Notes under the pieces: generated by a model
What the model was told of the DNA's origin: nothing
Databases searched by the model: none
The model's input: the letters and a program-made list of their open reading frames with translations, nothing else
From: Shigella phage SHFML-26
DNA: 64,000 bases
Direction: 5' to 3' (one strand)
Sequence record: KX130862
Part shown: positions 9,082 to 40,950 of the stretch, piece by piece
Numbering within the stretch: the first letter of the stretch is position 1
Layout of the letters: the number at the start of each line of letters is the position of its first letter
Translations under genes and position numbers: made by a program

Positions 9082-9111
9082 ATAATACCACAGTTTGAGC
9101 TCGTTGTAAAC
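9082..9111 (-). promoter_or_regulatory. T4-type early promoter (GTTTAC -35, TATTAT -10)
   Basis: Minus strand GTTTAC, 18 nt, TATTAT upstream of the 8869..9051 gene, with AT-rich upstream element. Confidence 0.5.
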
Positions 9112-9209
9112 AACTTTGTGAAAATTATTTTAGGGAATGATAAGAAAGGAACGATAGCTTAGAATGGTAATATACAGAATGTGAGAAAGAAAGGCCCAGA
9201 GGGCCCGTC

Positions 9210-9533
9210 TTAATCTTCTATGATATCTCTATCATATCCAAGTGAAATGAGAGTTTCTTTGAAGTGTTTAATGTTCTTTTGTCTAGAATCATTAATGAAA
9301 ATGACTGGATAACGAATGTTAAGAGATGTGAATCCAGCGCGTTTAGCAAGAGATACAATCAGCGGACGATCATACTCAATCTTACCGTTATTTGTAAGAA
9401 CTTTATAGAAAGTAAAAGGAGCATTGAGCTCCTTTAGAAGTTTTGTAACTGATTGACATCCAGGACAACGACCTACTTCTTCGGGGATGCCATAGATTTC
9501 AATCTTATTCTTTAAGTTCGAGTTTTGTTCCAC
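9210..9533 (-). CDS. nrdH: NrdH-like glutaredoxin
   Basis: CPGC redox motif after a beta-strand (KIEIYGIPEEVGRCPGCQ); track ORF 9210..9662 is N-terminally over-extended; the start is probably a GTG near 9533 and is uncertain. Confidence 0.65.
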   Translation of the reverse strand: MEQNSNLKNKIEIYGIPEEVGRCPGCQSVTKLLKELNAPFTFYKVLTNNGKIEYDRPLIVSLAKRAGFTSLNIRYPVIFINDSRQKNIKHFKETLISLGYDRDIIED

Positions 9534-9816
9534 GAGAAATAATTCCTTGATAAGCCCAGTATGGCGGGTTAACAGAATCCTCACCAGAGTTTTCTTCAGG
9601 AAAATAAACCTGGATAACGAAGCCGGATTCATCAAAGGTGAAATAAGTAGTAGGCAGTTCACCTAACAAATCGGCACGAGCGTTGATTTCTTCGAGGTCT
9701 TGTTCACGTCCAGCCCAGAAGCTTGGGTTCAGACTACATTCATAGAAATAATAGTCATTACCGAACATATCAAAACCATTCCAACTCTCTACTACATACC
9801 GCTCAAAACTAATCAT
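9505..9816 (-). CDS. hypothetical protein
   Basis: 103-aa ATG-initiated ORF. Confidence 0.5.
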   Translation of the reverse strand: MISFERYVVESWNGFDMFGNDYYFYECSLNPSFWAGREQDLEEINARADLLGELPTTYFTFDESGFVIQVYFPEENSGEDSVNPPYWAYQGIISRGTKLELKE

Positions 9817-9818
9817 AA

Positions 9819-10034
9819 TTAAGCCTTTTTATCAAGAACAGCATTCAGCTTGTTAGTAATTTTATCCAGACGCTCATTAAACTCACTAGAAGATAAGCCC
9901 TTTTCTGGAGAAATTAAACTAATCACGAAAAATATAGCAATAAAAGGAATAAGGAAAATAGCTCCAACTGCCATAAACAGAAAGAATGTTACAGTTGTAA
10001 GAAAATCAGCTAAACCTTTACGAAATTTATACAT
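9819..10034 (-). CDS. small membrane protein
   Basis: 71 aa with a central hydrophobic helix (VTFFLFMAVGAIFLIPFIAIFFVISLI). Confidence 0.5.
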   Translation of the reverse strand: MYKFRKGLADFLTTVTFFLFMAVGAIFLIPFIAIFFVISLISPEKGLSSSEFNERLDKITNKLNAVLDKKA

Positions 10035-10149
10035 ATTTTACCCTTAATTAATTAACCAAGCATTGATAAGCACTAAACTATATTGGGAATAAAATTCTGG
10101 ACCAAAATGAAAAATCATATCATTTATAGTATCCATAATGTAATTCAGT

Positions 10150-10620
10150 TTAATCATGTTTCCACACCCCATCGGTATTTGACCAAAGTCGCTGATTATC
10201 TGATCCTCGCCACAGCTTTTTAGTCGGAAGATTTTTCTCATACTTCCCATCAATAATAACATCAACATATTTAAGCATTTCTAGCTGTTTAATATCTTCA
10301 AACTTATATCCTGTCCACAACCAAATGCTTTTATTGGGATAAAGATTTTTAATAGTTTGAACCACAGAGTGAATCACGTCTCTGTTATCAGGATAAAGAG
10401 GGTCTCCTCCAGTTATAGTTAATCCTTCTATATAATCATTATTCAAACATTCAATCAATTGTTCTAGTGTTTCACCGGTGAATGGAATACCATTTCTAGC
10501 ATTCCATGTTGATTTATTATAACACCCTTCACATTTATGCAAACAACCTGTAACGAAAAGAACAGTTCTGCAACCAGGGCCATTCACAAAGCAGCACGGG
10601 TATATTCTGTCATAATTCAT
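10150..10620 (-). CDS. nrdG: anaerobic ribonucleotide reductase activating protein NrdG (radical SAM)
   Basis: CxxxCxxC radical-SAM motif (CLHKCEGC); starting at MNYDRIYP gives 156 aa as in T4 NrdG; track ORF starts at an upstream TTG. Confidence 0.9.
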   Translation of the reverse strand: MNYDRIYPCCFVNGPGCRTVLFVTGCLHKCEGCYNKSTWNARNGIPFTGETLEQLIECLNNDYIEGLTITGGDPLYPDNRDVIHSVVQTIKNLYPNKSIWLWTGYKFEDIKQLEMLKYVDVIIDGKYEKNLPTKKLWRGSDNQRLWSNTDGVWKHD

Positions 10621-11447
10621 AATAATATCCAATTTTTCCAAGCTTCATCAGTAGAATTACAGCGTTTTAGTATAAGATGTCTAGAAACTTTTATGGCATT
10701 TGAGCACTTTTTAATTGAATCATATTTAATACCGTCAACTGAAACGGTTTTGCTAGTTGGAGAAATTTTTCCATACATTGGATTTTTTGAACCAACTTGA
10801 AGTCCTTTTAAAGCTTTTGAAAGCTTTTGTCTAGATTCCAATGACATGGGAGAATTCTTTTTACCTTCAATAATTCGCTTGCGATGAAGTTCGCGTTCTT
10901 CTTCACTCAAAGAATTGTAATATTTTTTAACACCGTTTGATATAGATAATTTATCTTTCTCAGACCGCTCTCCAGCTAATTTACTTCTAACATCTTTTCG
11001 CTTCATAGCTATGCTTACGGCTTTATTTAAATTTGCTTGATGCTCTGGCGTACGTTTATATTTCTTTAAAGCACGTGAAATAGCTATTTTAGTTTCTTCT
11101 GTTCTCTTTTTACCTTTATTTGCTAAACTATTTTTGTGGCGATGTTCAAGTGTCTGTTCATAGGCAGTTCCACCTTTTCCACCAGGTTTAATATTATATG
11201 TATTTTCTTTTAGACAATACTCTTCAGTTACAAGTTCAGCTTCTTTATCATACATTTGCTTTTCATTATCAAAAACATATAAAATTTCTTTATAAAAATT
11301 TTTTCTACCATATTTTAATAAAGCAGCACGAATCAATGTTCCTGATCCCATATAACCGTCATTTATATTATCGGTGCTATGCGCACCGATATATTCCTTT
11401 GAATTAATTATATTTGTTATTTTATAAATTATATAATACCTATGCAT
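10617..11447 (-). CDS. GIY-YIG homing endonuclease (Seg-like)
   Basis: 276 aa; N-terminal GIY-YIG module (YYIIYKITN...EYIGAHST...GYMGSG); C-terminal NUMOD-like DNA-binding repeats; overlaps the nrdD stop and the nrdG start. Confidence 0.85.
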   Translation of the reverse strand: MHRYYIIYKITNIINSKEYIGAHSTDNINDGYMGSGTLIRAALLKYGRKNFYKEILYVFDNEKQMYDKEAELVTEEYCLKENTYNIKPGGKGGTAYEQTLEHRHKNSLANKGKKRTEETKIAISRALKKYKRTPEHQANLNKAVSIAMKRKDVRSKLAGERSEKDKLSISNGVKKYYNSLSEEERELHRKRIIEGKKNSPMSLESRQKLSKALKGLQVGSKNPMYGKISPTSKTVSVDGIKYDSIKKCSNAIKVSRHLILKRCNSTDEAWKNWILL

Positions 11448-16760: not shown

Positions 16761-17762
16761 TTACTTAATTAACTGTAAAGCTTGTTCAAGACGATCCAGG
16801 CGATTAACAGATTCTTCCCAAATCCTTTTAGCCTGCTCATATTCTTTCTGTGCTTTATTAGAAATTTCTAGAACTTCTTTATAAGCTTTTTCTAGTGCAA
16901 TAACTTCTGGACGAATTTCTATCGGTTCAGGTGAATCGTCAAGACATTCCATTAGTTCCTCAAGGGTAGTTTCTTCTTTAGGAGTATTCACAATTTCATC
17001 ACATTTTTGTTGGTAAATTTCTTTATCAGTCGGTGAGTACGCGCACTTTACTTCACGAAGACTAACTACAATTTTATATCCTTCCCAACCACCCATATTT
17101 TTGAAAGGATATGTATGAATACTTTTTACAGTTTCCATACAATCCAAAGCCGTCTCTAATTGATGAGTTATAGTGCTAGCAATTGAGAAAAATTTATTAA
17201 TATTCTTTTGGTTAGCTTCTGGTGTAAAAAATTCGTAATTCACAAAAATAGCTACTTTATTTTTATCAAGCTCATATTCTTTTACGATAATCATATCAGA
17301 AGCCAAAGGATGAATTTGACGATAATCGCCATAACATAATTTAGAAGCTGATTTTAGAATTTGTCCTTTAAAAAGTCTGAAATTACTAATCCAACGACGA
17401 GTAAAAATATTCTTAGGGTCTTCTTTGATATTAAGATGATAAGAATTAACATCACCGAACCAATTGTATCCTATTACACCTTTAGTTCGTTTAATTTCTT
17501 TCCCAAAATTATCAAGAATATCCCGATTAACCAAATATGAAAGAAGACGAGACCCTTTAAAGGTTTTCTTGATAACATCTTTATCTACACGGCTAGAAAT
17601 TTTACGAATTTCATGAATAAATTTAGTAGAAGAAACAATACTTGCATCAATACTACTGAGCCATTGATTGATAATAGAAAGAACAGCGTTCTGACTAGAC
17701 ATGGGTTTAACTTTATCATCAATAACCCTATTGAATGATTTGATATATTCGTTACGAGTCAT
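16761..17762 (-). CDS. hypothetical protein with C-terminal coiled-coil
   Basis: Track ORF 16761..17792; the first ATG sits inside the promoter -10 element, so the ATG at MTRNEYIKSF with a GAGGAG SD is preferred. Confidence 0.6.
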   Translation of the reverse strand: MTRNEYIKSFNRVIDDKVKPMSSQNAVLSIINQWLSSIDASIVSSTKFIHEIRKISSRVDKDVIKKTFKGSRLLSYLVNRDILDNFGKEIKRTKGVIGYNWFGDVNSYHLNIKEDPKNIFTRRWISNFRLFKGQILKSASKLCYGDYRQIHPLASDMIIVKEYELDKNKVAIFVNYEFFTPEANQKNINKFFSIASTITHQLETALDCMETVKSIHTYPFKNMGGWEGYKIVVSLREVKCAYSPTDKEIYQQKCDEIVNTPKEETTLEELMECLDDSPEPIEIRPEVIALEKAYKEVLEISNKAQKEYEQAKRIWEESVNRLDRLEQALQLIK

Positions 17763-17790
17763 ATTAATCTCCTCAGTAGAAAGTAAGAAC

Positions 17791-17820
17791 ATTATACCAC
17801 ATCCTTGTGGAAAAGTAAAC
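17791..17820 (-). promoter_or_regulatory. T4-type early promoter (GTTTAC -35, TATAAT -10)
   Basis: Minus strand GTTTACttttccacaaggatgtggTATAAT upstream of the 16761..17762 gene. Confidence 0.55.
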
Positions 17821-18842
17821 TAGTTCAGTGCATTTAGTGCATTGTTCAGTTTAGAACGTTGCTTCGTAAGATTTTTGACTTTTTCTTGAGCTTTTTCCAG
17901 CATCTTTTCAGCTTCTAACACTTCATTAGTTGCTTTAACAAGTTCATCATCTACTGCCTTGATAGACTTCTCAATCGCATCCGCGTGCCATTTTTCAACA
18001 GGTTTAAGACTCGGATTTTCAACAGGAAGAAAATTCACTTTATTAAATTTCCATGCGTCTTTATTACCTGAGCTATACATCCAAAATTTAGGATCGTTTG
18101 ATGAGCAATTAGATAAATTTAAGTTATCTTGCACTTCCTGCTTTTTCTCTTGCGGGACTTCGTCCTTTCTCAAAAAATCGTATTTAAATGAAACGATCAT
18201 ATCAAGTTCATATGTTGTTGTATGTTCCCAATTTCGCTCAAAACGAGGTAAAATCTTAGATTGAACAGCAGCAACAACATCCATATACTTAAATGCTTCT
18301 GTCAGCTGTGATTTAAGACATTCACAAATTGAAAGAGAATTTTTAGTATTAGGCTTAAAGCTAATTCGTGCAGTTCTATTATTTTCTTTTAATGGTCTTA
18401 CTTCCATCTGAAGAGTATAACCATCAAATTTCAGATTCTTTAAGTTAATATCAGAGCCTTTTAATCGACTAGCAGTAGACAAAATTTGCTTTAATTGTCT
18501 ACGGAACAGAGCAATAAATCTCCATTCAATACGATAATGATTTGGATTGAAAAATCCAGATGATAAATCGACCTTACTTTGACCAACGCCTTGAACAATC
18601 AAAGGATTTTTATAATCAATAGTTTTACAGAAATCGGTGAGCTGTTCACGAGCAGTCATTTGCGTAATATACCCTGCTTTACTAAAATTACGCACCCATT
18701 CGCTGCTATTCAGATATTTAAAGTGATGAATAGCACGATTAACTTTATCAGGGTCTAAATTATTTTCACACAAAAATGTCATAACATCACGAGTATAGCT
18801 GGCATTACGAACCATATCTTCAATTTGAGAACGAGTTTTCAT
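17820..18842 (-). CDS. hypothetical protein with C-terminal coiled-coil
   Basis: 340 aa; C-terminal helix ...VLEAEKMLEKAQEKVKNLTKQRSKLNNALNALN. Confidence 0.6.
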   Translation of the reverse strand: MKTRSQIEDMVRNASYTRDVMTFLCENNLDPDKVNRAIHHFKYLNSSEWVRNFSKAGYITQMTAREQLTDFCKTIDYKNPLIVQGVGQSKVDLSSGFFNPNHYRIEWRFIALFRRQLKQILSTASRLKGSDINLKNLKFDGYTLQMEVRPLKENNRTARISFKPNTKNSLSICECLKSQLTEAFKYMDVVAAVQSKILPRFERNWEHTTTYELDMIVSFKYDFLRKDEVPQEKKQEVQDNLNLSNCSSNDPKFWMYSSGNKDAWKFNKVNFLPVENPSLKPVEKWHADAIEKSIKAVDDELVKATNEVLEAEKMLEKAQEKVKNLTKQRSKLNNALNALN

Positions 18843-20212: not shown

Positions 20213-20740
20213 TTATGCGAGTACCGTCTTTAACCGTTCTTCAAACTTCCGAAGAGTATTCTGGCGTTCAGCTCTTTGCTTTTTGTAAGTTTCAATACGC
20301 TCTGAAATGAGAGTGTATCGTTCATTTACTGATTCTTTCATAAAATCAGGAATTTCACGAGAAGCTTTAATCTCATCAAATTTATCAATAACAGCTTGCT
20401 CTTCAGCAATTAAGTTATCATACATCAAAATATCTTTCTTGATGAACTCAATATCTTCTTGAGTTACACGAGATAATTTAGATGCTTTATCCTTTTTGTA
20501 TTGTTCGTTAGTATCACGAGACCAGTGTAATGTACGATTTTTATTCGTATTCTTGTAAATTTCTACAATACCAATCTCATCAATAATAACGATCCAATTC
20601 CAACGGGATTTGTAAATTTGTCCTCCATCAACTGTAATTTCACCTCCGATTGAGATGTCATTAAAGAACTTGCTTTGTGCTTCAGATTTAAATTTACCAT
20701 CGTTGTAATTTACCAGGTTGAAAATATCTTTAGCGTTCAT
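20213..20740 (-). CDS. hypothetical protein
   Basis: Track ORF 20213..20800 runs into the conserved promoter leader (TIQLSTTEE); true start is the ATG at MNAKDIFNL after a GGAGGA SD. Confidence 0.55.
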   Translation of the reverse strand: MNAKDIFNLVNYNDGKFKSEAQSKFFNDISIGGEITVDGGQIYKSRWNWIVIIDEIGIVEIYKNTNKNRTLHWSRDTNEQYKKDKASKLSRVTQEDIEFIKKDILMYDNLIAEEQAVIDKFDEIKASREIPDFMKESVNERYTLISERIETYKKQRAERQNTLRKFEERLKTVLA

Positions 20741-20768
20741 TTTGTGTTCCTCCGTAGTTGATAGTTGT

Positions 20769-20798
20769 ATAGTACCACAGAGGAACGGTCTTGTAAAC
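20769..20798 (-). promoter_or_regulatory. T4-type early promoter with conserved leader
   Basis: GTTTAC, 18 nt, TACTAT, then conserved leader ACAACTATCAACTA and GGAGGA SD before the ATG near 20740. Confidence 0.55.
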
Positions 20799-20800
20799 AA

Positions 20801-21115
20801 CTAAAAGAAACTTCTTTCACAATTTTTTCCACTGAACCAAGCGCTCACTGCTTTCTTAGTCTCAGGAGCGGTGTTATCCATAAACCATTCAAAGGCAGCC
20901 TTTTTATGATTCTGGAGGGCTTCTCGGGCTTTAATCTGCTCACGGTCTATTAACACTAACATATGAGCCTTTCTTGTCACCATGGGCTTCTTATGATTTT
21001 TTGAATACTCCCAATCATTTGTCCATCGCATTGTCGTTGCGAACTGAAATACTGCTTCTTTAATTTTAGTTTCGTAAATTTCACGAGCCTTTGAGTATAA
21101 CATCATTACCTCCAT
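20801..21115 (-). CDS. hypothetical protein
   Basis: 104-aa ORF. Confidence 0.5.
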   Translation of the reverse strand: MEVMMLYSKAREIYETKIKEAVFQFATTMRWTNDWEYSKNHKKPMVTRKAHMLVLIDREQIKAREALQNHKKAAFEWFMDNTAPETKKAVSAWFSGKNCERSFF

Positions 21116-21205: not shown

Positions 21206-22174
21206 TTATTTCAGAAGAGTAACCTCAGCGATTTCTTCCCAACCGTTTTTGTCGGTCATAATAAAGTCAGCAAGATAAAGAGCAGTACGCAGTGAAACAT
21301 TACGTAAACGGTTAACATTGACTTTCATCCATGATAATGCTTTATAAGTTTCTTCATCAGAAAGACCGCGCTTTTGCATCATGTCGGTTGAAAGAATAAC
21401 ATCTTCAACCCTGACCATAATTTCTTCATTAGTGTGAACACCCAAATCTAAATAAACTGAGCGGGACACTAATGCTTGTAAATGTGGAGCAAGTTTAGTA
21501 CCACGGTCTAATTCGCGGTCAATATCAACGTTTGTGATAAAAACAATTGTTCCTTTAAATTCAAACTCACGGTCAATGCCTTTTTCTTCTAAGTAAGAAG
21601 ATGCAGTGCTCCAGCAGACTTTACGGGTCTCTCCAGTGTCCAGAGCAGCTTTCAGAAGATTAAGAATGTCCATATCAGAGAAAACATCCACATCATCAAT
21701 CAAAAGGACAGAATTCTCTTCACGATTATTCCAAAGCTGCTCATAAAGACCAATACCAGAGATTTTACCATTAATGCTTTTATATTCAATGTATCCAATA
21801 TCATTTGCTTTATTCAAAGCTTTATCTAAAGAATACGTTTTACCAATACCCGCCGCACCAGAGATAATTAATGAACGAATGTTTCCGTTAATAATACCAT
21901 TCGTCATCATTCCCATAACATTAAATCTTTTATTAATGCGGGTTTTCATATCTTCATACGATTCTTTAACTTCTTCAACTTTTACACCATCATATGAAAT
22001 GTCTGATTTGTAAACCCAAACACCGCGACGCTTACCGTCAATTTCAACAAAAACTTTACCATCTCCTTGTGCATCTACCGGAGCATTATCTGGGAACCAT
22101 TCGCCTAAGAGCTCAAAAGTTCCAGAGATTTCTTTACCGAAGTAGATACCCTTATTGATAGTTACAGTTTTCAT
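21206..22174 (-). CDS. P-loop NTPase (AAA-like ATPase)
   Basis: Walker A GAAGIGKT and Walker B VLLIDDVD; own early promoter upstream; track ORF 21206..22186 begins at TTG, ATG at MKTVTINKG preferred. Confidence 0.7.
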   Translation of the reverse strand: MKTVTINKGIYFGKEISGTFELLGEWFPDNAPVDAQGDGKVFVEIDGKRRGVWVYKSDISYDGVKVEEVKESYEDMKTRINKRFNVMGMMTNGIINGNIRSLIISGAAGIGKTYSLDKALNKANDIGYIEYKSINGKISGIGLYEQLWNNREENSVLLIDDVDVFSDMDILNLLKAALDTGETRKVCWSTASSYLEEKGIDREFEFKGTIVFITNVDIDRELDRGTKLAPHLQALVSRSVYLDLGVHTNEEIMVRVEDVILSTDMMQKRGLSDEETYKALSWMKVNVNRLRNVSLRTALYLADFIMTDKNGWEEIAEVTLLK

Positions 22175-22208
22175 TTTATTCTCCAAATCCGTATTAGTTG
22201 ATAGTTGT

Positions 22209-22238
22209 ATAGTACCATAAAGCTTTATGCTTGTAAAC
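22209..22238 (-). promoter_or_regulatory. T4-type early promoter with conserved leader
   Basis: Same module upstream of the ATPase gene (start 22174). Confidence 0.55.
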
Positions 22239-22261
22239 CGTTTTGTGAAAAATTTTTGAAA

Positions 22262-22288
22262 TAAAAAAGGGAGCCCGAAGGCTCCCTA
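22262..22288 (-). terminator. intrinsic terminator (UUCG-loop hairpin plus U-tract) after the nucleotidyltransferase-like gene
   Basis: Minus strand AGGGAGCCUUCGGGCUCCCU followed by UUUUUUAUUU. Confidence 0.65.
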
Positions 22289-24848: not shown

Positions 24849-24983
24849 AATTACATACTCCTTTGAATAATATCAATAATGTTGTTCATCAGATTATAAG
24901 TAAACATTGGGTAATTATATTGAATCATTACATACACAACAAACAAAACTTTCATTCTCTTCTCCTTGACAGTTGACAAGATT

Positions 24984-25013
24984 ACTATACCATAACCTTG
25001 CCAACTTGTAAAC
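24984..25013 (-). promoter_or_regulatory. T4-type early promoter
   Basis: GTTTAC, spacer, TATAGT upstream of the 24291..24848 gene. Confidence 0.45.
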
Positions 25014-25015
25014 CG

Positions 25016-25189
25016 TTAAATGTTGTTTTCAATAAAATTCTGAAGCTTTGTGTGAGCATCAACCATGATTTTCATTTCTTCCTTTGCGAAAGCTGTACCT
25101 CTTTCCCGAGCAGAATACTCATAGTCAGAAACTGCATTAGCATATTCTTCAATTAGCTTCATTAAAAACATCTGCTTTTCAGTTTTCAT
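25016..25189 (-). CDS. small ORF (57 aa) beginning MKTEKQ
   Basis: ATG-initiated minus ORF whose ribosome-binding site and first six codons repeat those of the gene at 25376..25576; below the track cutoff. Confidence 0.3.
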   Translation of the reverse strand: MKTEKQMFLMKLIEEYANAVSDYEYSARERGTAFAKEEMKIMVDAHTKLQNFIENNI

Positions 25190-25578: not shown

Positions 25579-25767
25579 TTATTCCACCACATATGACAGA
25601 GAGAATATTGCACACGCCATATGAGTTGCAGCTTCATCACACATATCATAACGTTTCTTAAGAAGTTCTACAAGTTCTTCACTAGTAACTTCATCCATGT
25701 CGACGAAAAAATCACCATTAATGATGACGTAGATATTTCCTTCTTGATTAAGTGCTTCAATTTTCAT
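25579..25767 (-). CDS. hypothetical acidic protein
   Basis: Track ORF 25579..25812 includes promoter-leader translation; ATG at [10 protein letters not shown] follows the conserved leader and SD. Confidence 0.45.
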
Positions 25768-25795
25768 GATGTTCTCCTCTTTATCCGATAGTTGT

Positions 25796-25825
25796 ATAGT
25801 ATCACAGTTCAAATGGAAAGTAAAC
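25796..25825 (-). promoter_or_regulatory. T4-type early promoter with conserved leader
   Basis: GTTTAC, spacer, TACTAT and leader ACAACTATCGGATAAAGAGGAGAAC before the ATG near 25767. Confidence 0.55.
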
Positions 25826-25834
25826 CGGTAAAAT

Positions 25835-25858
25835 GAAAAAAGTCTCCCGAAGGAGACT
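25835..25858 (-). terminator. intrinsic terminator (UUCG-loop hairpin plus U-tract)
   Basis: Minus strand AGUCUCCUUCGGGAGACU followed by UUUUUUC after the 25863..26249 gene. Confidence 0.6.
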
Positions 25859-29498: not shown

Positions 29499-29960
29499 TC
29501 ATTGAGTTTTAATTACTGCTTTAGAAGCCTTTCCTGGTAAACGACGACTGTTGATAATTGCCATCCTGCATTGAAGTGACGGGTTTTTGAACTTCTCATT
29601 AGGCTTACAAACCGTAAATCCAAGCCAAAGATTTCCATCTGTGATTTCTAAACGTCCAGGACGATATTCAACCCCATCAATAAAATCCTCGTCAATGTCA
29701 GGACGCGGAGGCATACTCAGGAATTCATTAACTTCTAAAACATGGTCTTTTATTTTATGGAATAATTCAAAAACATATGTCTCATCAATCTCCCGTTGAA
29801 TTGCACGATCAAGAAGATGTTGAGAATATTTTAGATGAAACGATGAGACTCCTGCTGCTTTTGATGCCTCACGAATCTCATTGTTAATTTGACGAAACTC
29901 CGACTCAAAATGACGACGAAGCTTATTTCGACGGATAAAAACTTCTGTATTGATAGTCAT
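29499..29960 (-). CDS. regB: RegB sequence-specific endoribonuclease
   Basis: 153 aa; MTINTEVFIRRNKLRRHFESEFRQ; early promoter (GTTTAC -35, TATAAT -10) and GAGGAG SD upstream; matches T4 RegB. Confidence 0.95.
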   Translation of the reverse strand: MTINTEVFIRRNKLRRHFESEFRQINNEIREASKAAGVSSFHLKYSQHLLDRAIQREIDETYVFELFHKIKDHVLEVNEFLSMPPRPDIDEDFIDGVEYRPGRLEITDGNLWLGFTVCKPNEKFKNPSLQCRMAIINSRRLPGKASKAVIKTQ

Positions 29961-29988
29961 GTTGTTCTCCTCTTAACTGATAGAAAAA

Positions 29989-30017
29989 TTATACCACAGT
30001 CAAGAGGAAAAGTAAAC
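29989..30017 (-). promoter_or_regulatory. T4-type early promoter of regB
   Basis: Minus strand GTTTACttttcctcttgactgtggTATAAT followed by GAGGAGAA SD and the regB ATG. Confidence 0.65.
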
Positions 30018-30019
30018 AG

Positions 30020-30298
30020 TTATTCTTTAAATCTAATCAATTTATTCATAGACTTTGAAACTTCTGCACGAACCTCATGTAGATTTTTGAGCTGTTCAAG
30101 ACGCTGCGTATAGTAAGCAATTTCATCTTCTTCGAGACAGTCCTGTGAATCTTCTTTAAGATAACGTGCATAGTCCTGGAAAGCGTTACGGACTACTTCC
30201 TGGAAATCATCAAGACTTTGAATTTTCTTAGGAGCAACAGATACACGACGAGGGGCAGTATAATACTCATAACCAAACCCTGCGCTTAATTGAGCCAT
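30020..30298 (-). CDS. hypothetical helical protein
   Basis: Track ORF 30020..30340 trimmed to the ATG ([13 protein letters not shown]...) that abuts the upstream stop. Confidence 0.5.
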
Positions 30299-31140: not shown

Positions 31141-31147
31141 ATAAACC

Positions 31148-32061: not shown

Positions 32062-32166
32062 TTCTGTATTTACCTATTACCGCACTTGGGCTCGACCTTA
32101 TTACAGGTTGGCGGGAATCCCTCATAGAATCATGAGGTCCAGCTTGTTCCCATATTTCTTATTTGC

Positions 32167-32640: not shown

Positions 32641-32649
32641 GGGTTTCCT

Positions 32650-33066
32650 TTAAATGTAAATATTTTTACCGTAATACTTATACCAATGTGGTTTCATTAA
32701 AATTTTTTCATCAAGTCGTTGTTGACTCAATTTAATAGCTGATTTGCATGGATTATAATCATTTTTCCATTCTACTGGAATATCGCTGATGTCAGGAACT
32801 TCAGTATCTTTTATACTGAACCTGCGTTTTAAGCATTCCGTTATAATGTCTGATTGACGCTTTCGCAAAAATTCTAACTTATCGTAAAAGAACGTAACAT
32901 GACCAGAACCTAAAATAAACTTGGAAGATATTTTAAAATCTTTAACCCGTTTACCATTTGCCACATGTTTACGAACTATACCAAAAACACGTGGCAATTC
33001 ACGGTATTCTGCGATTAAATGTTGATCAGCAAGTTCAGATACTAAAGTCAAATTAATACGAGTCAT
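32650..33066 (-). CDS. denV: endonuclease V (pyrimidine dimer DNA glycosylase)
   Basis: 138 aa; [17 protein letters not shown]...; length equals T4 DenV; early promoter upstream. Confidence 0.95.
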
Positions 33067-33091
33067 TTTATCCCTCCAAGTAACTGTGAAT

Positions 33092-33121
33092 ATACTATCA
33101 CAATTCTAGGAGAAAGTAAAC
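33092..33121 (-). promoter_or_regulatory. T4-type early promoter of denV
   Basis: GTTTAC, 18 nt, TAGTAT, then GGAGGGA SD before the denV ATG. Confidence 0.55.
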
Positions 33122-33125
33122 AACT

Positions 33126-33656
<531 letters not shown>

Positions 33657-35897: not shown

Positions 35898-35938
35898 TCC
35901 TATTTACTCCAAGTATAAGGGGCCGAAGCCCCTTATCA

Positions 35939-36532
35939 TTATTTCAGAGAATTAATATATTCCTGAACATCGGCAGAGGTAGTTTCAACCCCAGAAATAT
36001 TACCATTAAAGGTTTCAACTCGAGCAAGAGTATCTTCAATATCAACCTTAGTCAGTGCTGCAATTTCAACTACATCATCAGCAGTACTAATTCCAAGGGC
36101 ATTCGCTGCACGAGTTTCACGGATATATTCCAATTTAACCGCAAGTTCTTGGCGTGCATCATCCAATTCAACTACTTTCTTAGCGATTTCAATTCGCATT
36201 TCAGCATAACCGTCAGCCTTAGTAGTCAACTGCTCAGCTGTTCGACGATATAGTAAACCGAGTTTAGCATGCATTGTTACATCTTGGCCTTCGGAAAGAA
36301 GTTTACGAATTTCACGCTCTTTTGATTCGGCCTGTCGATTCTTTTCGACAATAAGTTCACGAATACGTTTTTCTTCATTAATAGATTTAACAGAAGCAGT
36401 TTTTAGATCTTTAATTTTATCAAGTAGTTTTGCTGCTGCAGCAGTATACTGTTCTTCAACAGATAAATTTTTAGCCATAGCAGAACCAAGTTTAGTGCGA
36501 ATAAACTCAACAATTTTCTTCAGTGTGTTCAT
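35939..36532 (-). CDS. coiled-coil protein (weak PspA-like character)
   Basis: 197 aa, almost entirely helical heptad repeats. Confidence 0.5.
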
Positions 36533-36633
36533 AGTATTTCCTTAGGTTAATTGAGATTTAAAATCCGTAGGAGTATAATACTCTATCGTCAAATTATAGG
36601 CTCATAATATCTCAATCATGAGCCTGTGTAAAC

Positions 36634-36897
36634 TTATTTCATATTATTGAAATATTCTTCTGCGATTTCGTCGTTATCATGGTAAACTTTAGAAGACAGT
36701 TTAACATAACCTTCTGCTGTGAACATATTAATCACAACTTTTACAGTATACCACTGACCGTCTTCATTACCCATTACTGCGTAAGTTTCAAACATCGGAT
36801 GATCAGGACCGATAACTTTAATATCATTCACTGTACGACCGAAATCTTCTGAAACGCATTTCATAAAGAAGTTGAACAGTTCGCCGTAATTATCCAT
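36634..36897 (-). CDS. hypothetical protein
   Basis: Track ORF 36634..37017 includes promoter-leader translation (GTIQLSTTDTEN); ATG at MDNYGELF preferred. Confidence 0.5.
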   Translation of the reverse strand: MDNYGELFNFFMKCVSEDFGRTVNDIKVIGPDHPMFETYAVMGNEDGQWYTVKVVINMFTAEGYVKLSSKVYHDNDEIAEEYFNNMK

Positions 36898-36940
36898 TTC
36901 ATTCTCCAAGTTGTTTTCTGTATCAGTAGTTGATAGTTGT

Positions 36941-36970
36941 ATAGTACCATGGAAGAACAGAGATGTAAAC
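36941..36970 (-). promoter_or_regulatory. T4-type early promoter with conserved leader
   Basis: Same module (GTTTAC, TACTAT, leader ACAACTATCAACTACTGATACAGAAAAC) upstream of the 36634..36897 gene. Confidence 0.55.
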
Positions 36971-37092
36971 AGTTTTGTGAAAAAATTTTTAGGGAATTCT
37001 AGGGCAGGGATGGGCAATTAAAGGATAGGATAATATATTATAAAGAGTAGAAACTAAATGATGTCTAGAGAGGCCCGGAAAGGCCTAGATAC

Positions 37093-37122
37093 CAAAAAGC
37101 CCCAACCTTTCGGTCGGGGCTA
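37093..37122 (-). terminator. terminator of the tRNA/stable-RNA transcription unit
   Basis: Minus strand hairpin AGCCCCGACCGAAAGGUUGGGGCU followed by UUUUUGG; a second hairpin GGCCUUUCCGGGCC lies just downstream. Confidence 0.5.
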
Positions 37123-38876: not shown

Positions 38877-39401
38877 TTAAAGCAAATTAAACATTTTAAC
38901 GGTCGGCAAAACAATTTCTTCTTCTATATAAGAGTATTTAACACTCTCAACTACACGCAAAAAATCATAATCATAATACTCAGAAGCATTACCTAAAATA
39001 TTAATAAGTCCTTCAAGCACTTTATTACCATTCACAAAGAATAAGTCAAATACACGTTCTTCATCTTCTTCAGATTTATTACCAAGATCAACTTCTATGC
39101 GAAAGACCTTTTTAATGAATTCTGGATAAAGCTGGTCTGAGAACAGTCCTTCAACTAAGTATTCATAAATAAAAACAGATTGCTCGCTGAACAAACCATT
39201 ACCACAATAGCGCTCAATTTTAGTACTAGAATATCTGCTTTTAAATTTCTTTAAAAGATACTGAAATTGTAAGATTTCATGCTCTTCTACGCCAAACAGT
39301 GTTTTAGTTTTATAGTTGTCACCATCATTTTCCCAGGTAGTGACATCAATTACGTAACCCTGCGGAATTGTAGTACCCAAACAAATATTCATTTTCACCA
39401 C
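38877..39401 (-). CDS. hypothetical protein
   Basis: 174-aa ORF between the tRNA cluster and the internal-protein genes. Confidence 0.5.
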   Translation of the reverse strand: MVKMNICLGTTIPQGYVIDVTTWENDGDNYKTKTLFGVEEHEILQFQYLLKKFKSRYSSTKIERYCGNGLFSEQSVFIYEYLVEGLFSDQLYPEFIKKVFRIEVDLGNKSEEDEERVFDLFFVNGNKVLEGLINILGNASEYYDYDFLRVVESVKYSYIEEEIVLPTVKMFNLL

Positions 39402-39685
39402 GCTGCATTAATGTAAGTATATTTAATACATTCAAGACCCAAAGGATTCTTGAAAATATCATATTCAAGAAGACCTTTTTCTGTTTCAATAAAGAAATCA
39501 AAATTTACTGTATTAAATTTACGTTCTTCCTTCACTAATTTAACTTGTGAAGATGAACGGTCAATGTAAACCTTTTCAACTTCAAAACATGTTAAAATGC
39601 CATAATCATCAATCAAGGCTTTAGCTGCTTCTTGATCATATTTATATCCATTTTCAATGGATGATACTTTAGCATAAAGAATCAT
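39395..39685 (-). CDS. hypothetical protein
   Basis: 96-aa ORF. Confidence 0.5.
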   Translation of the reverse strand: MILYAKVSSIENGYKYDQEAAKALIDDYGILTCFEVEKVYIDRSSSQVKLVKEERKFNTVNFDFFIETEKGLLEYDIFKNPLGLECIKYTYINAAW

Positions 39686-40086: not shown

Positions 40087-40271
40087 TATTCACCTTTAGA
40101 AATTTTATCCATAACGATAGCAATTAAACCAATTAAAAATGCTACTACAAGTGAAAAAACATTTTCTGCCGTAGTCAATAATCCGCATATAAATCCAACA
40201 AACATTGAAAAACTGAAAGCGGAAGCAGAAATTGCAATAGCAACATTTCGAATTAATTCACAACGTTTCAT
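40086..40271 (-). CDS. small membrane protein (61 aa)
   Basis: Track ORF 40086..40412 includes promoter-leader translation; ATG at MKRCELIR follows the conserved leader and SD; two hydrophobic helices. Confidence 0.45.
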   Translation of the reverse strand: MKRCELIRNVAIAISASAFSFSMFVGFICGLLTTAENVFSLVVAFLIGLIAIVMDKISKGE

Positions 40272-40298
40272 TTTATTCTCCTCAGTAGTTGATAGGGT

Positions 40299-40328
40299 AA
40301 TAGTATCACTACCCCATCTAAAAGTAAA
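40299..40328 (-). promoter_or_regulatory. T4-type early promoter with conserved leader
   Basis: Upstream of the small membrane-protein gene (start near 40271). Confidence 0.5.
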
Positions 40329-40329
40329 C

Positions 40330-40563
40330 TTATTTTTTACGAAAAATTGATTTATTTTCTGCTGCCCATTTTTCAATAACTGCAGCAGGACCAGTAACAA
40401 CAATTTTATCACCGTAATCTTCTGCGGCGAGTTGACCGAAATTATCTAATGCATCACGAAGAACTCCATGAGGCATTTCACCCATTTTATCTTTCTTGCC
40501 GGTGTAAATAAACTCAACTTTTGCATCAGAAGATTCAGCGATAAATTCTTTGAAAGTTTTCAT
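40330..40563 (-). CDS. internal protein with capsid targeting sequence (IPI-like)
   Basis: Track ORF 40330..40575; starts MKTFKEFIAES, the internal-protein targeting consensus; own early promoter. Confidence 0.65.
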   Translation of the reverse strand: MKTFKEFIAESSDAKVEFIYTGKKDKMGEMPHGVLRDALDNFGQLAAEDYGDKIVVTGPAAVIEKWAAENKSIFRKK

Positions 40564-40600
40564 TTTAGTTTCCATTCGATTGTTTTGTTTTGATAGGGTA

Positions 40601-40630
40601 ATAGTATCACAACTAAAACCCTATGTAAAC
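40601..40630 (-). promoter_or_regulatory. T4-type early promoter of internal-protein gene 40330..40563
   Basis: GTTTAC, 18 nt, TACTAT; about 60 bp block nearly identical to the one at 40921-40950. Confidence 0.55.
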
Positions 40631-40642
40631 AACTTTGTGAAA

Positions 40643-40900
40643 TTATTTTAAATCTTCTAATCGTTTCTTCATCTTAGAACCATTTTTAGCAATTTCTCCT
40701 GCATCGGAGCATAATGCTAAAAGTGCTTTAACTTTCGTTTGGTCTCCTTTAAAAGATGAAGGATCTACTGCAGCAGCAAGTTCTTTAATACGAGAGAAAA
40801 GACGCTCAGCTTCAGCTAAAGCCATTCCAAGCTTTACTTCCATACCGTGGGAAGATTCAGTGATAGTAGTTTTTGTAGCAAACTCTTTGAAAGTTTTCAT
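40643..40900 (-). CDS. internal protein with targeting-sequence-like N-terminus
   Basis: 85 aa; starts MKTFKEFATK; preceded by a near-identical copy of the promoter module of the neighbouring internal-protein gene. Confidence 0.6.
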   Translation of the reverse strand: MKTFKEFATKTTITESSHGMEVKLGMALAEAERLFSRIKELAAAVDPSSFKGDQTKVKALLALCSDAGEIAKNGSKMKKRLEDLK

Positions 40901-40920
40901 TTTATTTTCCTAATTAATTT

Positions 40921-40950
40921 TGATGAGGTAATAGTATCACTACCTCATCA
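40921..40950 (-). promoter_or_regulatory. T4-type early promoter of internal-protein gene 40643..40900
   Basis: Duplicate promoter module (ttgtgaaattattttaaat ... gtaaac ... atagta). Confidence 0.55.

What the first reader, a model, noticed from the sequence alone, without database searches (positions are those of the whole stretch)
9082..40950. At least twelve copies of a conserved early-promoter and leader module
Upstream of many minus-strand genes the same block recurs: an AT-rich upstream element, GTTTAC at -35, a 17-18 nt spacer, a TACTAT/TATAAT -10, then in several copies a conserved leader ACAACTATCAACTA and a GGAGGA Shine-Dalgarno. Copies lie near 9082, 17791, 20769, 22209, 24984, 25796, 29989, 33092, 36941, 40299, 40601 and 40921. 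The recurring TIQLSTTEE-type N-terminal extensions in the ORF track are read-through translations of this leader. The conservation beyond the core promoter suggests a transplantable expression cassette in front of accessory early genes.
Basis: partly seen in the sequence, partly recalled or inferred. Interest (0 to 1): 0.4.

Follow-up and report, generated by a model that had tools for sequence, protein, structure and literature searches.

The report
T4-type early promoter cassettes
The twelve repeated blocks are real: they are the well-known strong early promoters of a T4-like phage with short leaders, already described as recombination-prone regulatory cassettes, so the finding is correct but ordinary.

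Summary
The window comes from a Tequatrovirus, about 96% identical to sequenced T4 relatives. GTTTAC-N18-TAYWAT occurs 13 times, all on the minus strand, against 0.37 expected. Exactly the twelve listed sites form a strong class with an A/T-rich upstream element, GTTTAC, TGn, a -10 hexamer and a CTATCAAC start region. Nine of the twelve have a GGAG ribosome-binding site.

These are T4 early promoters, described in the literature as UP/-35/TGn/-10 promoters. The cassette idea is the published PeSL model (promoter-early stem-loop; Arbiol 2010, Comeau 2014). One GenBank relative already annotates promoter features upstream of the orthologous genes.

I found recombination junctions inside the modules. 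T6 fuses promoter 33121 to promoter 30017, losing 3,089 bp. T4 lacks a 280-bp internal-protein cassette that lies between promoters 40630 and 40329.

One aspect seems less described. In seven of the twelve promoters the spacer is complementary to the promoter's own leader, forming a hairpin around the -10 hexamer. In a related genome the sense RNA folds better than the antisense. Orthologues in other clades keep the pairing with different sequences. In this window the hairpin and an upstream terminator are mutually exclusive. At denV, regB and nrdC.8 the hairpin pairs the ribosome-binding site.

Novelty: already known. Interest is low.

The parts
40898..40985 (-). Early promoter module P40960: upstream (UP) element, -35 at 40960-40955, -10 TACTAT at 40936-40931, leader, and the ATG of an 85-aa internal head protein gene. 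A 13-bp hairpin (40950-40938 with 40933-40921) encloses the -10 hexamer.
   Evidence: MFE -17.4, better than all 22 chimeras; phrog_3499, internal head protein.
40561..40655 (-). Early promoter module P40630: -35 at 40630-40625, -10 at 40606-40601, upstream of a 77-aa internal virion protein gene. Hairpin arms at 40624-40612 and 40605-40593. This is the upstream boundary of the 280-bp cassette that T4 and Lutter lack.
   Evidence: (phrog_8111).
40269..40354 (-). Early promoter module P40329: -35 at 40329-40324, -10 at 40305-40300, upstream of the trna.4 orthologue. The ribosome-binding site GGAGAATAAAA matches the RegB consensus exactly. Hairpin arms at 40323-40307 and 40302-40291. This is the downstream boundary of the 280-bp cassette.
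36895..36995 (-). Early promoter module P36970: -10 at 36946-36941, exact leader ACAACTATCAACTA, upstream of the e.8 orthologue. It has no hairpin around the -10 hexamer.
37098..37121 (-). Terminator-like hairpin AGCCCCGACC-gaaa-GGTTGGGGCT followed by TTTTGG, 128-151 nt upstream of P36970.
33064..33146 (-). Early promoter module P33121: -35 at 33121-33116, -10 TAGTAT at 33097-33092, upstream of denV. The spacer CTCC pairs with the GGAG ribosome-binding site (hairpin arms 33115-33098 and 33089-33071). The upstream half is orthologous to the T4 promoter that lies between e and ipIII. T4 carries ipIII and ipII (1,094 bp) inserted in this leader.
29958..30042 (-). Early promoter module P30017: -10 TATAAT at 29993-29988, upstream of regB. 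A hairpin of about 17 bp (30011-29994 with 29983-29965) pairs the spacer with the AAGAGGAG ribosome-binding site.
   Evidence: (-22.4 kcal). The review read states that regB has a typical early promoter and that RegB cleaves its GGAG.
25765..25850 (-). Early promoter module P25825: -10 at 25801-25796, partial leader ACAACTATCGGATA, upstream of the mobD.5 orthologue.
25841..25858 (-). Terminator-like hairpin AGTCTCC-ttcg-GGAGACT followed by TTTTTCAT, immediately upstream of P25825.
24953..25038 (-). Early promoter module P25013: -10 TATAGT at 24989-24984, upstream of a 34-aa mobD.2-like gene. A 15-bp hairpin (25006-24992 with 24985-24971) encloses the -10 hexamer. It has two G.U pairs here that are A-U pairs in T4.
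   Evidence: (-20.0 kcal).
22172..22263 (-). Early promoter module P22238: -10 at 22214-22209, exact leader ACAACTATCAACTA, upstream of nrdC.10. The ribosome-binding site GGAGAATAAAA matches the RegB consensus exactly.
22268..22287 (-). Terminator-like hairpin AGGGAGCC-ttcg-GGCTCCCT followed by TTTTTTAT, immediately upstream of P22238.
20738..20823 (-). Early promoter module P20798: -10 at 20774-20769, exact leader ACAACTATCAACTA, upstream of nrdC.8. A 13-bp hairpin (20786-20774 with 20758-20746) pairs the spacer GTTCCTC with the GGAGGAAC ribosome-binding site.
   Evidence: (-20.9 kcal).
17760..17845 (-). Early promoter module P17820: -10 TATAAT at 17796-17791, upstream of nrdC.4. The -35 overlaps the stop codon of the upstream gene. 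A small hairpin CCACA-agga-TGTGG lies inside the spacer.
9049..9136 (-). Early promoter module P9111: -10 TATTAT at 9087-9082, upstream of the gene 55.6 orthologue, with a full upstream element AAAATAATTTTCACAAAGTT.
   Evidence: (phrog_2283).
9192..9206 (-). Terminator-like hairpin GGGCCC-tct-GGGCCT followed by TTCTTTCT, 81-95 nt upstream of P9111.
36604..36633 (-). Weak thirteenth site, GTTTAC-N18-TATTAT, without an upstream element or TGn. An AGGCTC/GAGCCT hairpin encloses its -10 hexamer. It is the orthologue of the T4 e.7 promoter. The e.7 gene is absent from the window, and the junction lies in this leader.

Best explanation
The twelve blocks are the strong early promoters of a T4-like phage (Tequatrovirus). 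Each is packaged with a short leader and a ribosome-binding site as a module of about 85-100 bp.

**Step 1: initiation (established for T4, inferred here by homology).** Unmodified host sigma-70 RNA polymerase binds immediately after infection. It uses four elements at once: the A/T-rich upstream (UP) element through the alpha C-terminal domains, GTTTAC(A/T) at -35, TGn, and TAnnAT at -10. Initiation is placed about 7 nt after the -10 hexamer, at the A of CTATCAAC.

**Step 2: early-mRNA inactivation (literature plus the enrichment shown here).** The 19-37-nt leader ends in a GGAG ribosome-binding site followed by an A-rich stretch. This is the target of the phage RegB/S1 endonuclease, which inactivates early mRNAs within minutes.

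**Step 3: insulation from upstream transcription (shown statistically; the function is inferred).** Each module handles transcripts arriving from upstream in one of two ways.
- Four modules have an intrinsic terminator-like hairpin just upstream.
- Seven modules have a hairpin whose 5' arm is the promoter spacer and whose 3' arm is the module's own leader. This hairpin can form only in read-through RNA.
- At denV, regB and nrdC.8 the hairpin pairs the ribosome-binding site. Those genes would then be translatable, and cleavable by RegB, mainly from their own promoter's transcript.

**Step 4: recombination (published model, confirmed here by junctions).** The modules are dispersed direct repeats. 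They act as homology patches at which recombination deletes, inserts or swaps the small accessory genes between them.
For: **Identity of the phage and the promoters**
- The window is about 96% identical to Tequatrovirus genomes.
- The exact pattern occurs 13 times against 0.37 expected, on one strand only.
- The twelve sites stand apart in a position-weight scan, and the consensus extends from about -57 to about +8.
- The consensus agrees with published T4 early promoters.
- Orthologous promoters are present in T4, Lutter and T6, and the Lutter record annotates promoter features upstream of the orthologous genes.
- The whole genome of a close relative has 32 such sites, all on the early-gene strand.

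**RegB target**
- GGAG lies in the ribosome-binding site of 7 of 10 promoter-proximal genes against 9 of 80 other minus-strand genes (Fisher p = 1.4e-4).
- The published RegB consensus GG*AGRAYARAA is matched exactly at promoters 40329 and 22238.

**Hairpin around the -10 hexamer**
- In the window, a promoter's own spacer plus its own leader folds at -14.3 kcal on average. Chimeras of one promoter's spacer with another's leader fold at -9.7 kcal, and 0 of 20,000 permutations reach the observed mean.
- Across the relative's genome the values are -14.6 against -9.85 kcal. For the 21 promoters outside the window region taken alone, 0 of 20,000 permutations reach the observed mean.
- Sense RNA folds at -14.6 kcal against -10.0 kcal for antisense. 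After a composition control the difference remains significant (p = 2.6e-4), and 55 of 343 spacer-leader pairs are G.U.
- regB and nrdC.8 orthologues were examined in three clades each. All three regB clades and two of the three nrdC.8 clades keep spacer-to-ribosome-binding-site pairing with different sequences. The third nrdC.8 clade has a hairpin next to the -10 hexamer instead. For regB, each clade's own spacer plus leader folds at -21.4 kcal against -12.7 kcal for cross-clade chimeras.
- Mosigvirus promoters also carry such hairpins.

**Terminator or hairpin**
- In the window, 4 of 5 non-hairpin promoters have an upstream terminator and 0 of 7 hairpin promoters do (Fisher p = 0.010).
- Anti-ribosome-binding-site tetramers (CTCC or CCTC) occur in 7 of 32 spacers against a 3.9% background (p = 1.8e-4).

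**Recombination**
- The T6 promoter is the upstream part of P33121 joined to the downstream part of P30017, with 3,089 bp missing.
- The single T4 and Lutter promoter is the 5' part of P40630 joined to the 3' part of P40329, with a 280-bp internal-protein cassette missing.
- T4 has ipIII and ipII inserted in the leader of P33121.
- The junction of the e.7 loss lies in the leader of site 36633.
- The PeSL papers describe the same model.
Against: - No transcription data exist for this phage. Promoter activity and the start site are inferred from T4.
- Leave-one-out scores of the three weakest sites (15.8-19.6) overlap one non-promoter-like site that scores 20.2.
- Occlusion of the ribosome-binding site is not general. 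Against chimeric upstream halves, predicted accessibility falls only from 0.38 to 0.32 (p = 0.058).
- Several hairpins (40960, 40630, 40329, 25013) do not touch the ribosome-binding site, so their role is unexplained.
- The terminator/hairpin dichotomy is weaker across the relative's genome (p = 0.045).
- Most indels in this region are not at promoters. Many are homing-endonuclease insertions.
- The conserved leader core CTATCAACTA has no demonstrated function.
Confidence: 0.92

Rival explanations
1. The blocks are chance sigma-70-like matches in an AT-rich genome and have no common function.
For: A generic TTGACA-N16-18-TATAAT scan finds as many sites as in shuffled sequence: 75 against 82.5, and 67 against 58. 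Loose consensus matches therefore mean nothing in this genome.
Against: The specific pattern occurs 13 times against 0.37 expected, on one strand only. Conservation spans about 65 nt. The sites are conserved at orthologous positions in T4, T6 and Lutter.
Confidence: 0.01
2. They are MotA/AsiA-dependent middle promoters or gp55-dependent late promoters rather than early ones.
For: The region also contains middle-expressed genes, and T4 middle promoters share the -10 hexamer and often TGn.
Against: Middle promoters have a MotA box, (a/t)(a/t)(a/t)TGCTTtA, centred at -30 in place of a -35 element. Late promoters are TATAAATA with no -35 element. All twelve sites have GTTTAC at -36 to -31 and a TAnnAT hexamer.
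Confidence: 0.03
3. The repeats are primarily recombination or mobility elements (PeSL mini-circle sites, or cruciform targets for endonuclease VII). The palindrome around the -10 hexamer would then be selected at the DNA level, with promoter activity secondary.
For: Junctions of several indels lie inside the modules. Arbiol 2010 detected mini-circles formed between PeSLs, with crossovers in or near the stem-loop.
Against: The hairpins are markedly better in the sense RNA than in the antisense, and 16% of the pairs are G.U. A cruciform would have to carry each of these as a G.T mismatch in one arm and an A.C mismatch in the other. The arm sequences differ between promoters, so no common protein site exists. 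The promoter elements themselves are the most conserved columns. Most indels are elsewhere.
Confidence: 0.15
4. The conserved leader encodes something of its own: a short peptide (the TIQLSTTEE reading) or a small RNA.
For: The same amino-acid string recurs in four mechanical ORFs.
Against: The string begins inside the -10 hexamer and has no start codon with a ribosome-binding site of its own. The mechanical ORFs start at TTG or GTG codons inside or upstream of the promoter. Conservation is at the nucleotide level and stops before the real ATG, and the downstream proteins are unrelated.
Confidence: 0.01

Closest known systems
Bacteriophage T4 early promoters (Pe), the sigma-70-dependent 'uber' UP/-35/TGn/-10 promoters (Hinton 2010, PMC2988021; Nolan 2006, PMC1524935; original consensus work by Liebig and Ruger recalled from memory, not read here)
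   Same: They share GTTTAC at -36 to -31, an A-rich upstream element, a GT-rich TGn, a TAnnAT -10 hexamer, extra consensus around the start site, and location upstream of early genes and small ORFs. The orthologues are positionally identical in T4 itself.
   Different: Nothing essential differs. This phage has a slightly different set of downstream genes: denV sits where T4 has ipIII, there is an extra internal-protein cassette, and e.7 is lost.
PeSL, promoter-early stem-loop regulatory cassettes of T4-type phages (Arbiol et al. 2010, PMC2839356; Comeau et al. 2014, PMC4122927; forerunner Repoila et al. 1994 at the IP loci)
   Same: Both are composite intergenic modules of an early promoter, a stem-loop and a ribosome-binding site. 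Both are repeated through the hyperplastic regions, flank small accessory genes and lie at indel junctions. The published PST/T4 consensus TTTACW-N17-TAYWAT is what is seen here.
   Different: For the PST/T4 group the 2014 paper places the stem-loops just upstream of the promoter (terminator type, AGNA-loop-TCNT). Here only 4 of 12 modules are of that type. Seven have a stem-loop that encloses the -10 hexamer, a position the 2010 paper describes for RB49/phi1. The papers treat the stem-loops as terminators or attenuators and as recombination sites. They do not treat them as RNA structures that pair the ribosome-binding site.
Promoter-inside-hairpin translational gating of T4 genes e, soc, 49 and I-TevI (reviewed by Uzan and Miller 2010, PMC3014915)
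   Same: At denV, regB and nrdC.8 the ribosome-binding site pairs with a 5' arm that lies upstream of the proximal start site. Only long read-through transcripts can form the inhibitory helix.
   Different: In the known cases the internal promoter is a late promoter (TATAAATA) and the effect has been measured. Here the internal promoter is an early one and the effect is only predicted. It applies to about a quarter of the promoters, not to all.
RegB/S1 endoribonuclease target sites (GG*AGRAYARAA) in early T4 mRNAs
   Same: GGAG followed by an A-rich stretch lies in the ribosome-binding site of 9 of 12 promoter-proximal genes. Two sites match the consensus exactly, and regB itself is among the genes.
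   Different: Cleavage was not tested. Three modules (two internal-protein genes and 55.6) lack GGAG.

Membership tests
T4 early promoter | -35 element GTTTAC at -36 to -31, with 17 bp between TTTACW and the -10 hexamer | tested here: met
   12 of 12 sites, all with identical spacing.
T4 early promoter | Extended -10 (TGn) plus a TAnnAT hexamer | tested here: met
   TG followed by one base precedes the hexamer in 12 of 12 sites. The hexamers are TACTAT x7, TATAAT x2, and TATTAT, TATAGT and TAGTAT x1 each.
T4 early promoter | A/T-rich upstream element at about -40 to -60 | tested here: met
   Column information is above noise from -57 to -37. The consensus is T.aAa.aa.Tttca.aaA.
T4 early promoter | Correct orientation, immediately 5' of early-gene orthologues, with positional orthology to T4 promoters | tested here: met
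   All twelve sites are on the early-gene strand. Eleven T4 sites align with them at the corresponding genes, because T4 has one promoter where the window has P40630 and P40329. The review states that the regB promoter is a typical early promoter.
T4 early promoter | Initiation by unmodified host RNA polymerase immediately after infection, independent of phage protein synthesis | not testable with these tools
   Needs 5'-end mapping or in vitro transcription.
PeSL cassette | Composite intergenic element: early promoter, stem-loop and ribosome-binding site within about 100 bp | tested here: met
   Seven modules have hairpins around the -10 hexamer, four have upstream terminator-like hairpins and one has a hairpin inside the spacer.
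PeSL cassette | Indel or replacement junctions between related phages fall within the elements | tested here: met
   The T6 fusion of P33121 and P30017, the 280-bp cassette lost in T4 and Lutter, the ipIII/ipII insertion in T4 and the e.7 loss all have junctions in the modules. Many other indels do not.
PeSL cassette | The stem-loop acts as a transcription terminator or attenuator, and mini-circles form between elements | not testable with these tools
   The hairpins around the -10 hexamer lack a U-run, so classical intrinsic termination is unlikely for them.
Promoter-in-hairpin translational gate (e/soc/49/I-TevI type) | The ribosome-binding site or AUG is paired with a 5' arm located upstream of the proximal transcription start | tested here: inconclusive
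   The feature is clear at promoters 33121, 30017 and 20798. Across the relative's genome the effect against chimeras is marginal: 0.32 against 0.38, p = 0.058.
Promoter-in-hairpin translational gate (e/soc/49/I-TevI type) | The proximal promoter is a late promoter (TATAAATA) | tested here: not met
   The embedded promoters are early-type GTTTAC/TGn/TAnnAT.
T4 middle promoter | MotA box (a/t)(a/t)(a/t)TGCTTtA centred at -30 in place of a -35 element | tested here: not met
   Positions -36 to -29 read GTTTAC(A/T)N in all twelve sites.
RegB/S1 target | GGAG in the translation-initiation region, followed by RAYARAA | tested here: met
   GGAG occurs in 9 of 12 modules. There are no mismatches to the consensus at 40329 and 22238, and one mismatch at 36970, 30017 and 25013. 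GGAG is enriched against other genes (p = 1.4e-4).

The most novel reading that the evidence does not exclude
Early promoters of T-even phages may be built so that their spacer is the 5' arm of an RNA hairpin and their own leader or ribosome-binding site is the 3' arm.

This hairpin would be a selected, RNA-level insulator that acts as an alternative to an upstream terminator. It forms only in transcripts that read through from upstream. Promoter-proximal early genes such as regB, denV and nrdC.8 would then be translated, and cut by RegB, essentially only from their own immediate-early transcript. That would extend the promoter-in-hairpin logic of genes e, soc and 49 from a few late promoters to a sizeable fraction of early promoters.

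The papers I could read describe stem-loops overlapping the -10 box for RB49/phi1, but only as terminators and recombination sites. For the T4/PST group they describe only upstream stem-loops.
Probability: 0.35. Interest if true: 0.45.

Novelty: already known. Interest (0 to 1): 0.18.

Why it matters
As stated, the finding re-discovers textbook T4 biology. These very strong early promoters let the phage seize host RNA polymerase within seconds. Their repetition through the hyperplastic regions is the basis of the published PeSL model of accessory-gene shuffling.

The practical value is for annotation. The twelve sites define the immediate-early transcription units of this phage. They explain spurious N-terminal ORF extensions. 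They also mark likely break-points for engineering or natural exchange of accessory genes such as the internal proteins, which counter host defences.

One element could interest specialists: the statistical evidence that most of these promoters are embedded in a sense-strand RNA hairpin. The hairpin is maintained by compensatory change across genera and excludes an upstream terminator in this window. If it gates translation or RegB cleavage according to which promoter made the transcript, it would add a layer to immediate-early versus delayed-early control.

Tried and rejected
- **Generic sigma-70 scan.** It does not discriminate in this AT-rich genome: it finds as many hits as in shuffles. 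I used it only for its terminator list.
- **Leader pattern with 3 mismatches.** 15 hits against 10.6 expected is not significant. Only the three exact copies and the shorter CTATCA core are meaningful.
- **First position-weight scan with a small pseudocount.** It was over-fitted, so I repeated it with a larger pseudocount and with leave-one-out scoring.
- **Greedy chaining of BLAST pieces.** It gave nonsense for T4 and Lutter. I replaced it with dynamic-programming chaining. Two Lutter breaks near promoters 17820 and 22238 look like paralogue artefacts and were not counted.
- **Phage LQ5 (L008).** I found no sites with my relaxed criterion. Either its consensus differs or I fetched the wrong region, so I dropped it.
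- **General occlusion of the ribosome-binding site.** The difference between own-promoter and read-through transcripts mostly disappears against chimeric controls. I kept the claim only for the subset of promoters that carry an anti-ribosome-binding-site sequence.
- **DNA-cruciform reading of the palindromes.** I judged it less likely because of the sense/antisense asymmetry.
- **MAFFT alignment of regB promoters.** It misaligned the 3' arms between clades, so I read the covariation pair by pair and checked it with chimera energies.
- **Papers not held.** Miller et al. 2003 (PMC150520) and Repoila et al. 1994 (PMC395341) could not be read. A search for T4 transcription-start-site mapping by RNA-seq found nothing relevant.
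- **Lost fetches.** Several loci fetched in parallel, or without a script run in between, never reached the script sandbox and had to be fetched again.

Full report
**Source of the window.** The window is about 96% identical over 22 kb to Tequatrovirus genomes such as vB_Eco_OMNI12, fPS-90 and Sf21. Its gene order matches T4 from gene 55 to gene 5. Positions 1 to about 44,000 are transcribed on the minus strand, which is the early-gene strand. GC skew flips at about 44 kb, where the late baseplate genes begin.

- GTTTAC-N(16-19)-TAYWAT occurs 13 times, all on the minus strand, against 0.37 expected, and no shuffle reached 13.
- All hits have an 18-nt gap, which is the canonical 17 bp if the -35 is read as TTTACW.
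- The two listed sites that the strict pattern missed (24984 and 33092) have TATAGT and TAGTAT hexamers at the same spacing.
- A weight matrix built from the twelve sites and run over both strands scores them at 30-46 bits. The next best site scores 14.7, and random Markov sequence reaches 9-14.
- That matrix is self-trained. With leave-one-out scoring on a narrower column set the twelve score 15.8-38.8. One conserved non-GTTTAC site at 19930 reaches 20.2, so the three weakest members are not cleanly separated by score alone.
- The consensus is T.aAa.aa.Tttca.aaA..tGTTTACat-N-TGTGgTAcTAT...ccTATCAAcTa...aggA. Information is above noise from about -57 to about +8 and again at the ribosome-binding site.
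- The leader ACAACTATCAACTA is exact in only three copies, with one partial copy. The core CTATCA occurs in eight.
- The TIQLST-type ORF extensions are translations of the -10 hexamer plus leader.

**What the blocks are.** They are T4 early promoters.
- Nolan et al. describe GTTTAC at -36 to -31, an A-rich -40 to -44 upstream (UP) element and a GT-rich stretch before -12 as the T4 early consensus.
- Hinton calls them 'uber' UP/-35/TGn/-10 promoters with additional regions of consensus. She notes that they out-compete host promoters and are stimulated by Alt ADP-ribosylation of the alpha subunit.
- The same promoters sit at the orthologous positions in T4, Lutter and T6. In T4 terms they lie upstream of 55.6, nrdC.4, nrdC.8, nrdC.10, mobD.2, mobD.5, regB, ipIII (denV in this window), e.8, trna.4 and ipI.
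- The Lutter GenBank record annotates 'promoter' features immediately upstream of the orthologous genes.
- The regB promoter is described in the literature as a typical early promoter.
- The whole genome of a close unannotated relative (OZ035789.1) has 32 such sites, all on one strand.
- They are not middle promoters, because there is no MotA box. They are not late promoters, because there is no TATAAATA.

**The ribosome-binding-site part of the module.** GGAG lies in the ribosome-binding site of 7 of 10 promoter-proximal genes recognised by a simple gene caller. That becomes 9 of 12 when the two short genes it missed are included. Only 9 of 80 other minus-strand genes have it (Fisher p = 1.4e-4). 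GGAG followed by RAYARAA is the target of the RegB/S1 endonuclease, which inactivates early mRNAs. Promoters 40329 and 22238 match the consensus exactly. Promoters 36970, 30017 (regB itself, known to be self-cleaved) and 25013 have one mismatch.

**The cassette idea.** This is the published PeSL model. Arbiol et al. 2010 and Comeau et al. 2014 describe modules of about 100 bp made of an early promoter, a stem-loop and a ribosome-binding site. The modules flank accessory ORFs in the hyperplastic regions of T4-type phages and mediate deletion, insertion and replacement. The consensus they give for the T4/PST pair is TTTACW-N17-TAYWAT. They credit Repoila 1994 for the same observation at the T-even internal-protein loci. 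I checked the model directly with chained BLAST comparisons and alignments.
- **T6.** It lacks window 30018-33108 (3,089 bp, vs.3 to denV). Its promoter is the upstream element and -35 of P33121 joined to the spacer, -10 and leader of P30017, with the crossover in the shared GTTTACTTT.
- **T4 and Lutter.** They lack window 40310-40589, which holds one internal-virion-protein gene plus one promoter copy. Their single promoter is P40630 up to GTGATACTATTACCCTATCA and P40329 after it.
- **T4 ipIII and ipII.** T4 carries these genes (1,094 bp) inserted at +8 of the P33121 leader. In the window, e is followed directly by denV.
- **Internal-protein replacement.** The internal-protein gene behind P40960 is replaced in T4 by ipI, between its promoter and the next one.
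- **e.7.** The weak site at 36633 is the T4 e.7 promoter. The e.7 gene is gone from the window, and the junction lies in that leader.
- **Limit.** Most other indels in the region are homing-endonuclease insertions away from promoters. Promoters are one route of plasticity, not the only one.

In seven of the twelve promoters the 18-nt spacer is complementary to the sequence just after the -10 hexamer, so the hexamer sits in the loop. Examples are GATGAGGTA/TACCTCATC at 40960, AAGTTGGCAAGGTTA/TAATCTTGTCAACTG at 25013 and CCTCTTGACTG/CAGTTAAGAGG at 30017.
- **Control design.** I used chimeras, joining one promoter's -35-to-(-10) half to another promoter's leader. These keep both base composition and all conserved motifs.
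- **Window result.** A promoter's own halves fold at -14.3 kcal on average, chimeras at -9.7 kcal, and 0 of 20,000 permutations reach the observed mean.
- **Genome-wide result.** In the relative the values are -14.6 and -9.85 kcal. For the 21 promoters outside the window's region taken alone, 0 of 20,000 permutations reach the observed mean.
- **RNA rather than DNA.** Sense RNA folds at -14.6 kcal and antisense at -10.0 kcal, with sense lower in 26 of 32 promoters. Chimeras show only a 1.8-kcal strand difference (difference of differences p = 2.6e-4), and 55 of 343 spacer-leader pairs are G.U. At 25013 the two G.U pairs of the window are A-U pairs in T4.
- **Maintained by compensatory change.** regB promoters from three clades read TTTTCCTCTTGACTG/CAGTTAAGAGGAGAA, TTCTCCTCTAGTTG/CAACTAGAGGAGAA and TCTCCTGTAAG/CTTACAGGAGA. 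Each clade's own halves fold at -21.4 kcal against -12.7 kcal for cross-clade chimeras. nrdC.8 behaves the same way in two clades and switches to a hairpin adjacent to the -10 hexamer in a third. Mosigvirus promoters have their own versions.

**What the hairpin might do.** It can form only in RNA that reads through the promoter from upstream.
- **Exclusive with terminators.** Promoters 22238, 25825, 9111 and 36970 lack the hairpin, and each has a terminator-like hairpin plus T-run 16-151 nt upstream on the same strand. None of the seven hairpin-type promoters has one (Fisher p = 0.010). The remaining promoter, 17820, has a small hairpin inside its spacer. Across the relative's genome the trend is weaker: nine promoters with terminators fold at -11.2 kcal against -15.9 kcal for the rest (p = 0.045).
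- **Pairing the ribosome-binding site.** At 33121 (denV), 30017 (regB) and 20798 (nrdC.8) the spacer carries CTCC or CCTC, which pairs with the GGAG ribosome-binding site. Such anti-ribosome-binding-site tetramers occur in 7 of 32 spacers against 3.9% of background 18-mers (p = 1.8e-4).
- **Not general.** Predicted accessibility of the ribosome-binding site is 0.32 in read-through RNA and 0.55 in the promoter's own transcript (p = 5.5e-6). Against chimeric upstream halves it is 0.32 and 0.38 (p = 0.058). Hairpins at 40960, 40630, 40329 and 25013 do not reach the ribosome-binding site at all.
- **My reading (inference).** Terminator and hairpin are two ways of insulating a module from upstream transcription. 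For a subset of genes the hairpin works like the known gates at e, soc, 49 and I-TevI, and it may also shield GGAG from RegB in long transcripts. For the rest the role is open: RNA stability, processing or attenuation.

**Comparison with what is known.** The promoters, their extended consensus, the RegB-type ribosome-binding site and the cassette-shuffling model are all published. Stem-loops overlapping the -10 box are described for RB49/phi1. For the T4/PST group the 2014 paper places them upstream of the promoter. The review of T4 RNA structures lists only late-promoter examples of promoter-in-hairpin gating. The only aspects I could not find in the papers available to me are:
- how common the hairpin around the -10 hexamer is in T-even phages;
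- its sense-strand bias;
- its exclusivity with terminators;
- its pairing with the ribosome-binding site.

Several key older papers could not be read, so prior description remains possible.

**Verdict.** Interest is low. There is a modest residual chance that the hairpin layer is a real, under-described regulatory feature.

Noticed in passing
window 33064-33146, compared with L001 (T4) 35360-36455: This phage has lysozyme gene e followed directly by denV. The internal-protein genes ipIII and ipII of T4 (1,094 bp) are absent, and denV is driven by the promoter that drives ipIII in T4.
   Followed up: partly
window 40330-40900: Two different internal head/virion protein genes (phrog_3499 and phrog_8111) sit in tandem, each behind its own early promoter. 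Both start MKTFKEF, which fits the capsid-targeting N-terminus of T4 internal proteins as I recall it (not checked here). T4 has ipI in place of the first and lacks the second, while T6 has both positions filled.
   Followed up: partly
L006 (T6, AP018814.1) 23002-23015: This T6 record lacks the whole vs.3-to-denV block (about 3.1 kb) and has e next to regB. The deletion runs exactly between two early promoters. I did not check whether this is the wild-type T6 arrangement or a laboratory deletion.
   Followed up: no
window 19901-19930 (minus strand): A promoter-like site, GTATTC-N18-TAATAT with TGa, lies inside the nrdC.7-like coding region. It is conserved in T4, Lutter and T6 and scores 15-20 bits. 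It is probably coding-sequence conservation, but an internal promoter is not excluded.
   Followed up: no
window 22268-22287 and 25841-25858: The two strongest terminator hairpins (GGGAGCC-ttcg-GGCTCCC and AGTCTCC-ttcg-GGAGACT) also score as terminator-like on the plus strand. Both have UUCG-type tetraloops. Similar AAGGACTCC-ttcg-GGAGTCCTT copies recur elsewhere in the relative's genome, so the terminators themselves form a repeat family.
   Followed up: partly
window 9510-9833, 10629-11464, 12719-12722, 23304-24265 and 38897-39419: Indels relative to T4 lie away from promoters. At 12719-12722 T4 carries about 1 kb that includes the I-TevII intron endonuclease gene of nrdD. At 10629-11464 and 23304-24265 T4 has mobC and mobD, while the window carries different sequence of similar length. 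The window-only segments at 9510-9833 and 38897-39419 (tRNA region) were not characterised.
   Followed up: no
L001 (AF158101.6), about locus position 40347: The T4 reference record contains an ambiguous base (N) inside the spacer of the e.7 promoter (GTTTACATAGGCTNATGATTGAGATATTAT).
   Followed up: no
window promoters 36970, 22238 and 20798 (-12 to +8): Three promoters in front of unrelated genes share an identical 22-nt stretch, GGTACTATACAACTATCAACTA. A second leader family, TACCCTATCAACTAC, recurs at 40329 and elsewhere in the relative's genome. This points to either strong selection on the initial transcribed sequence or gene conversion between promoters. The function of CTATCAACTA is unexplained.
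   Followed up: partly
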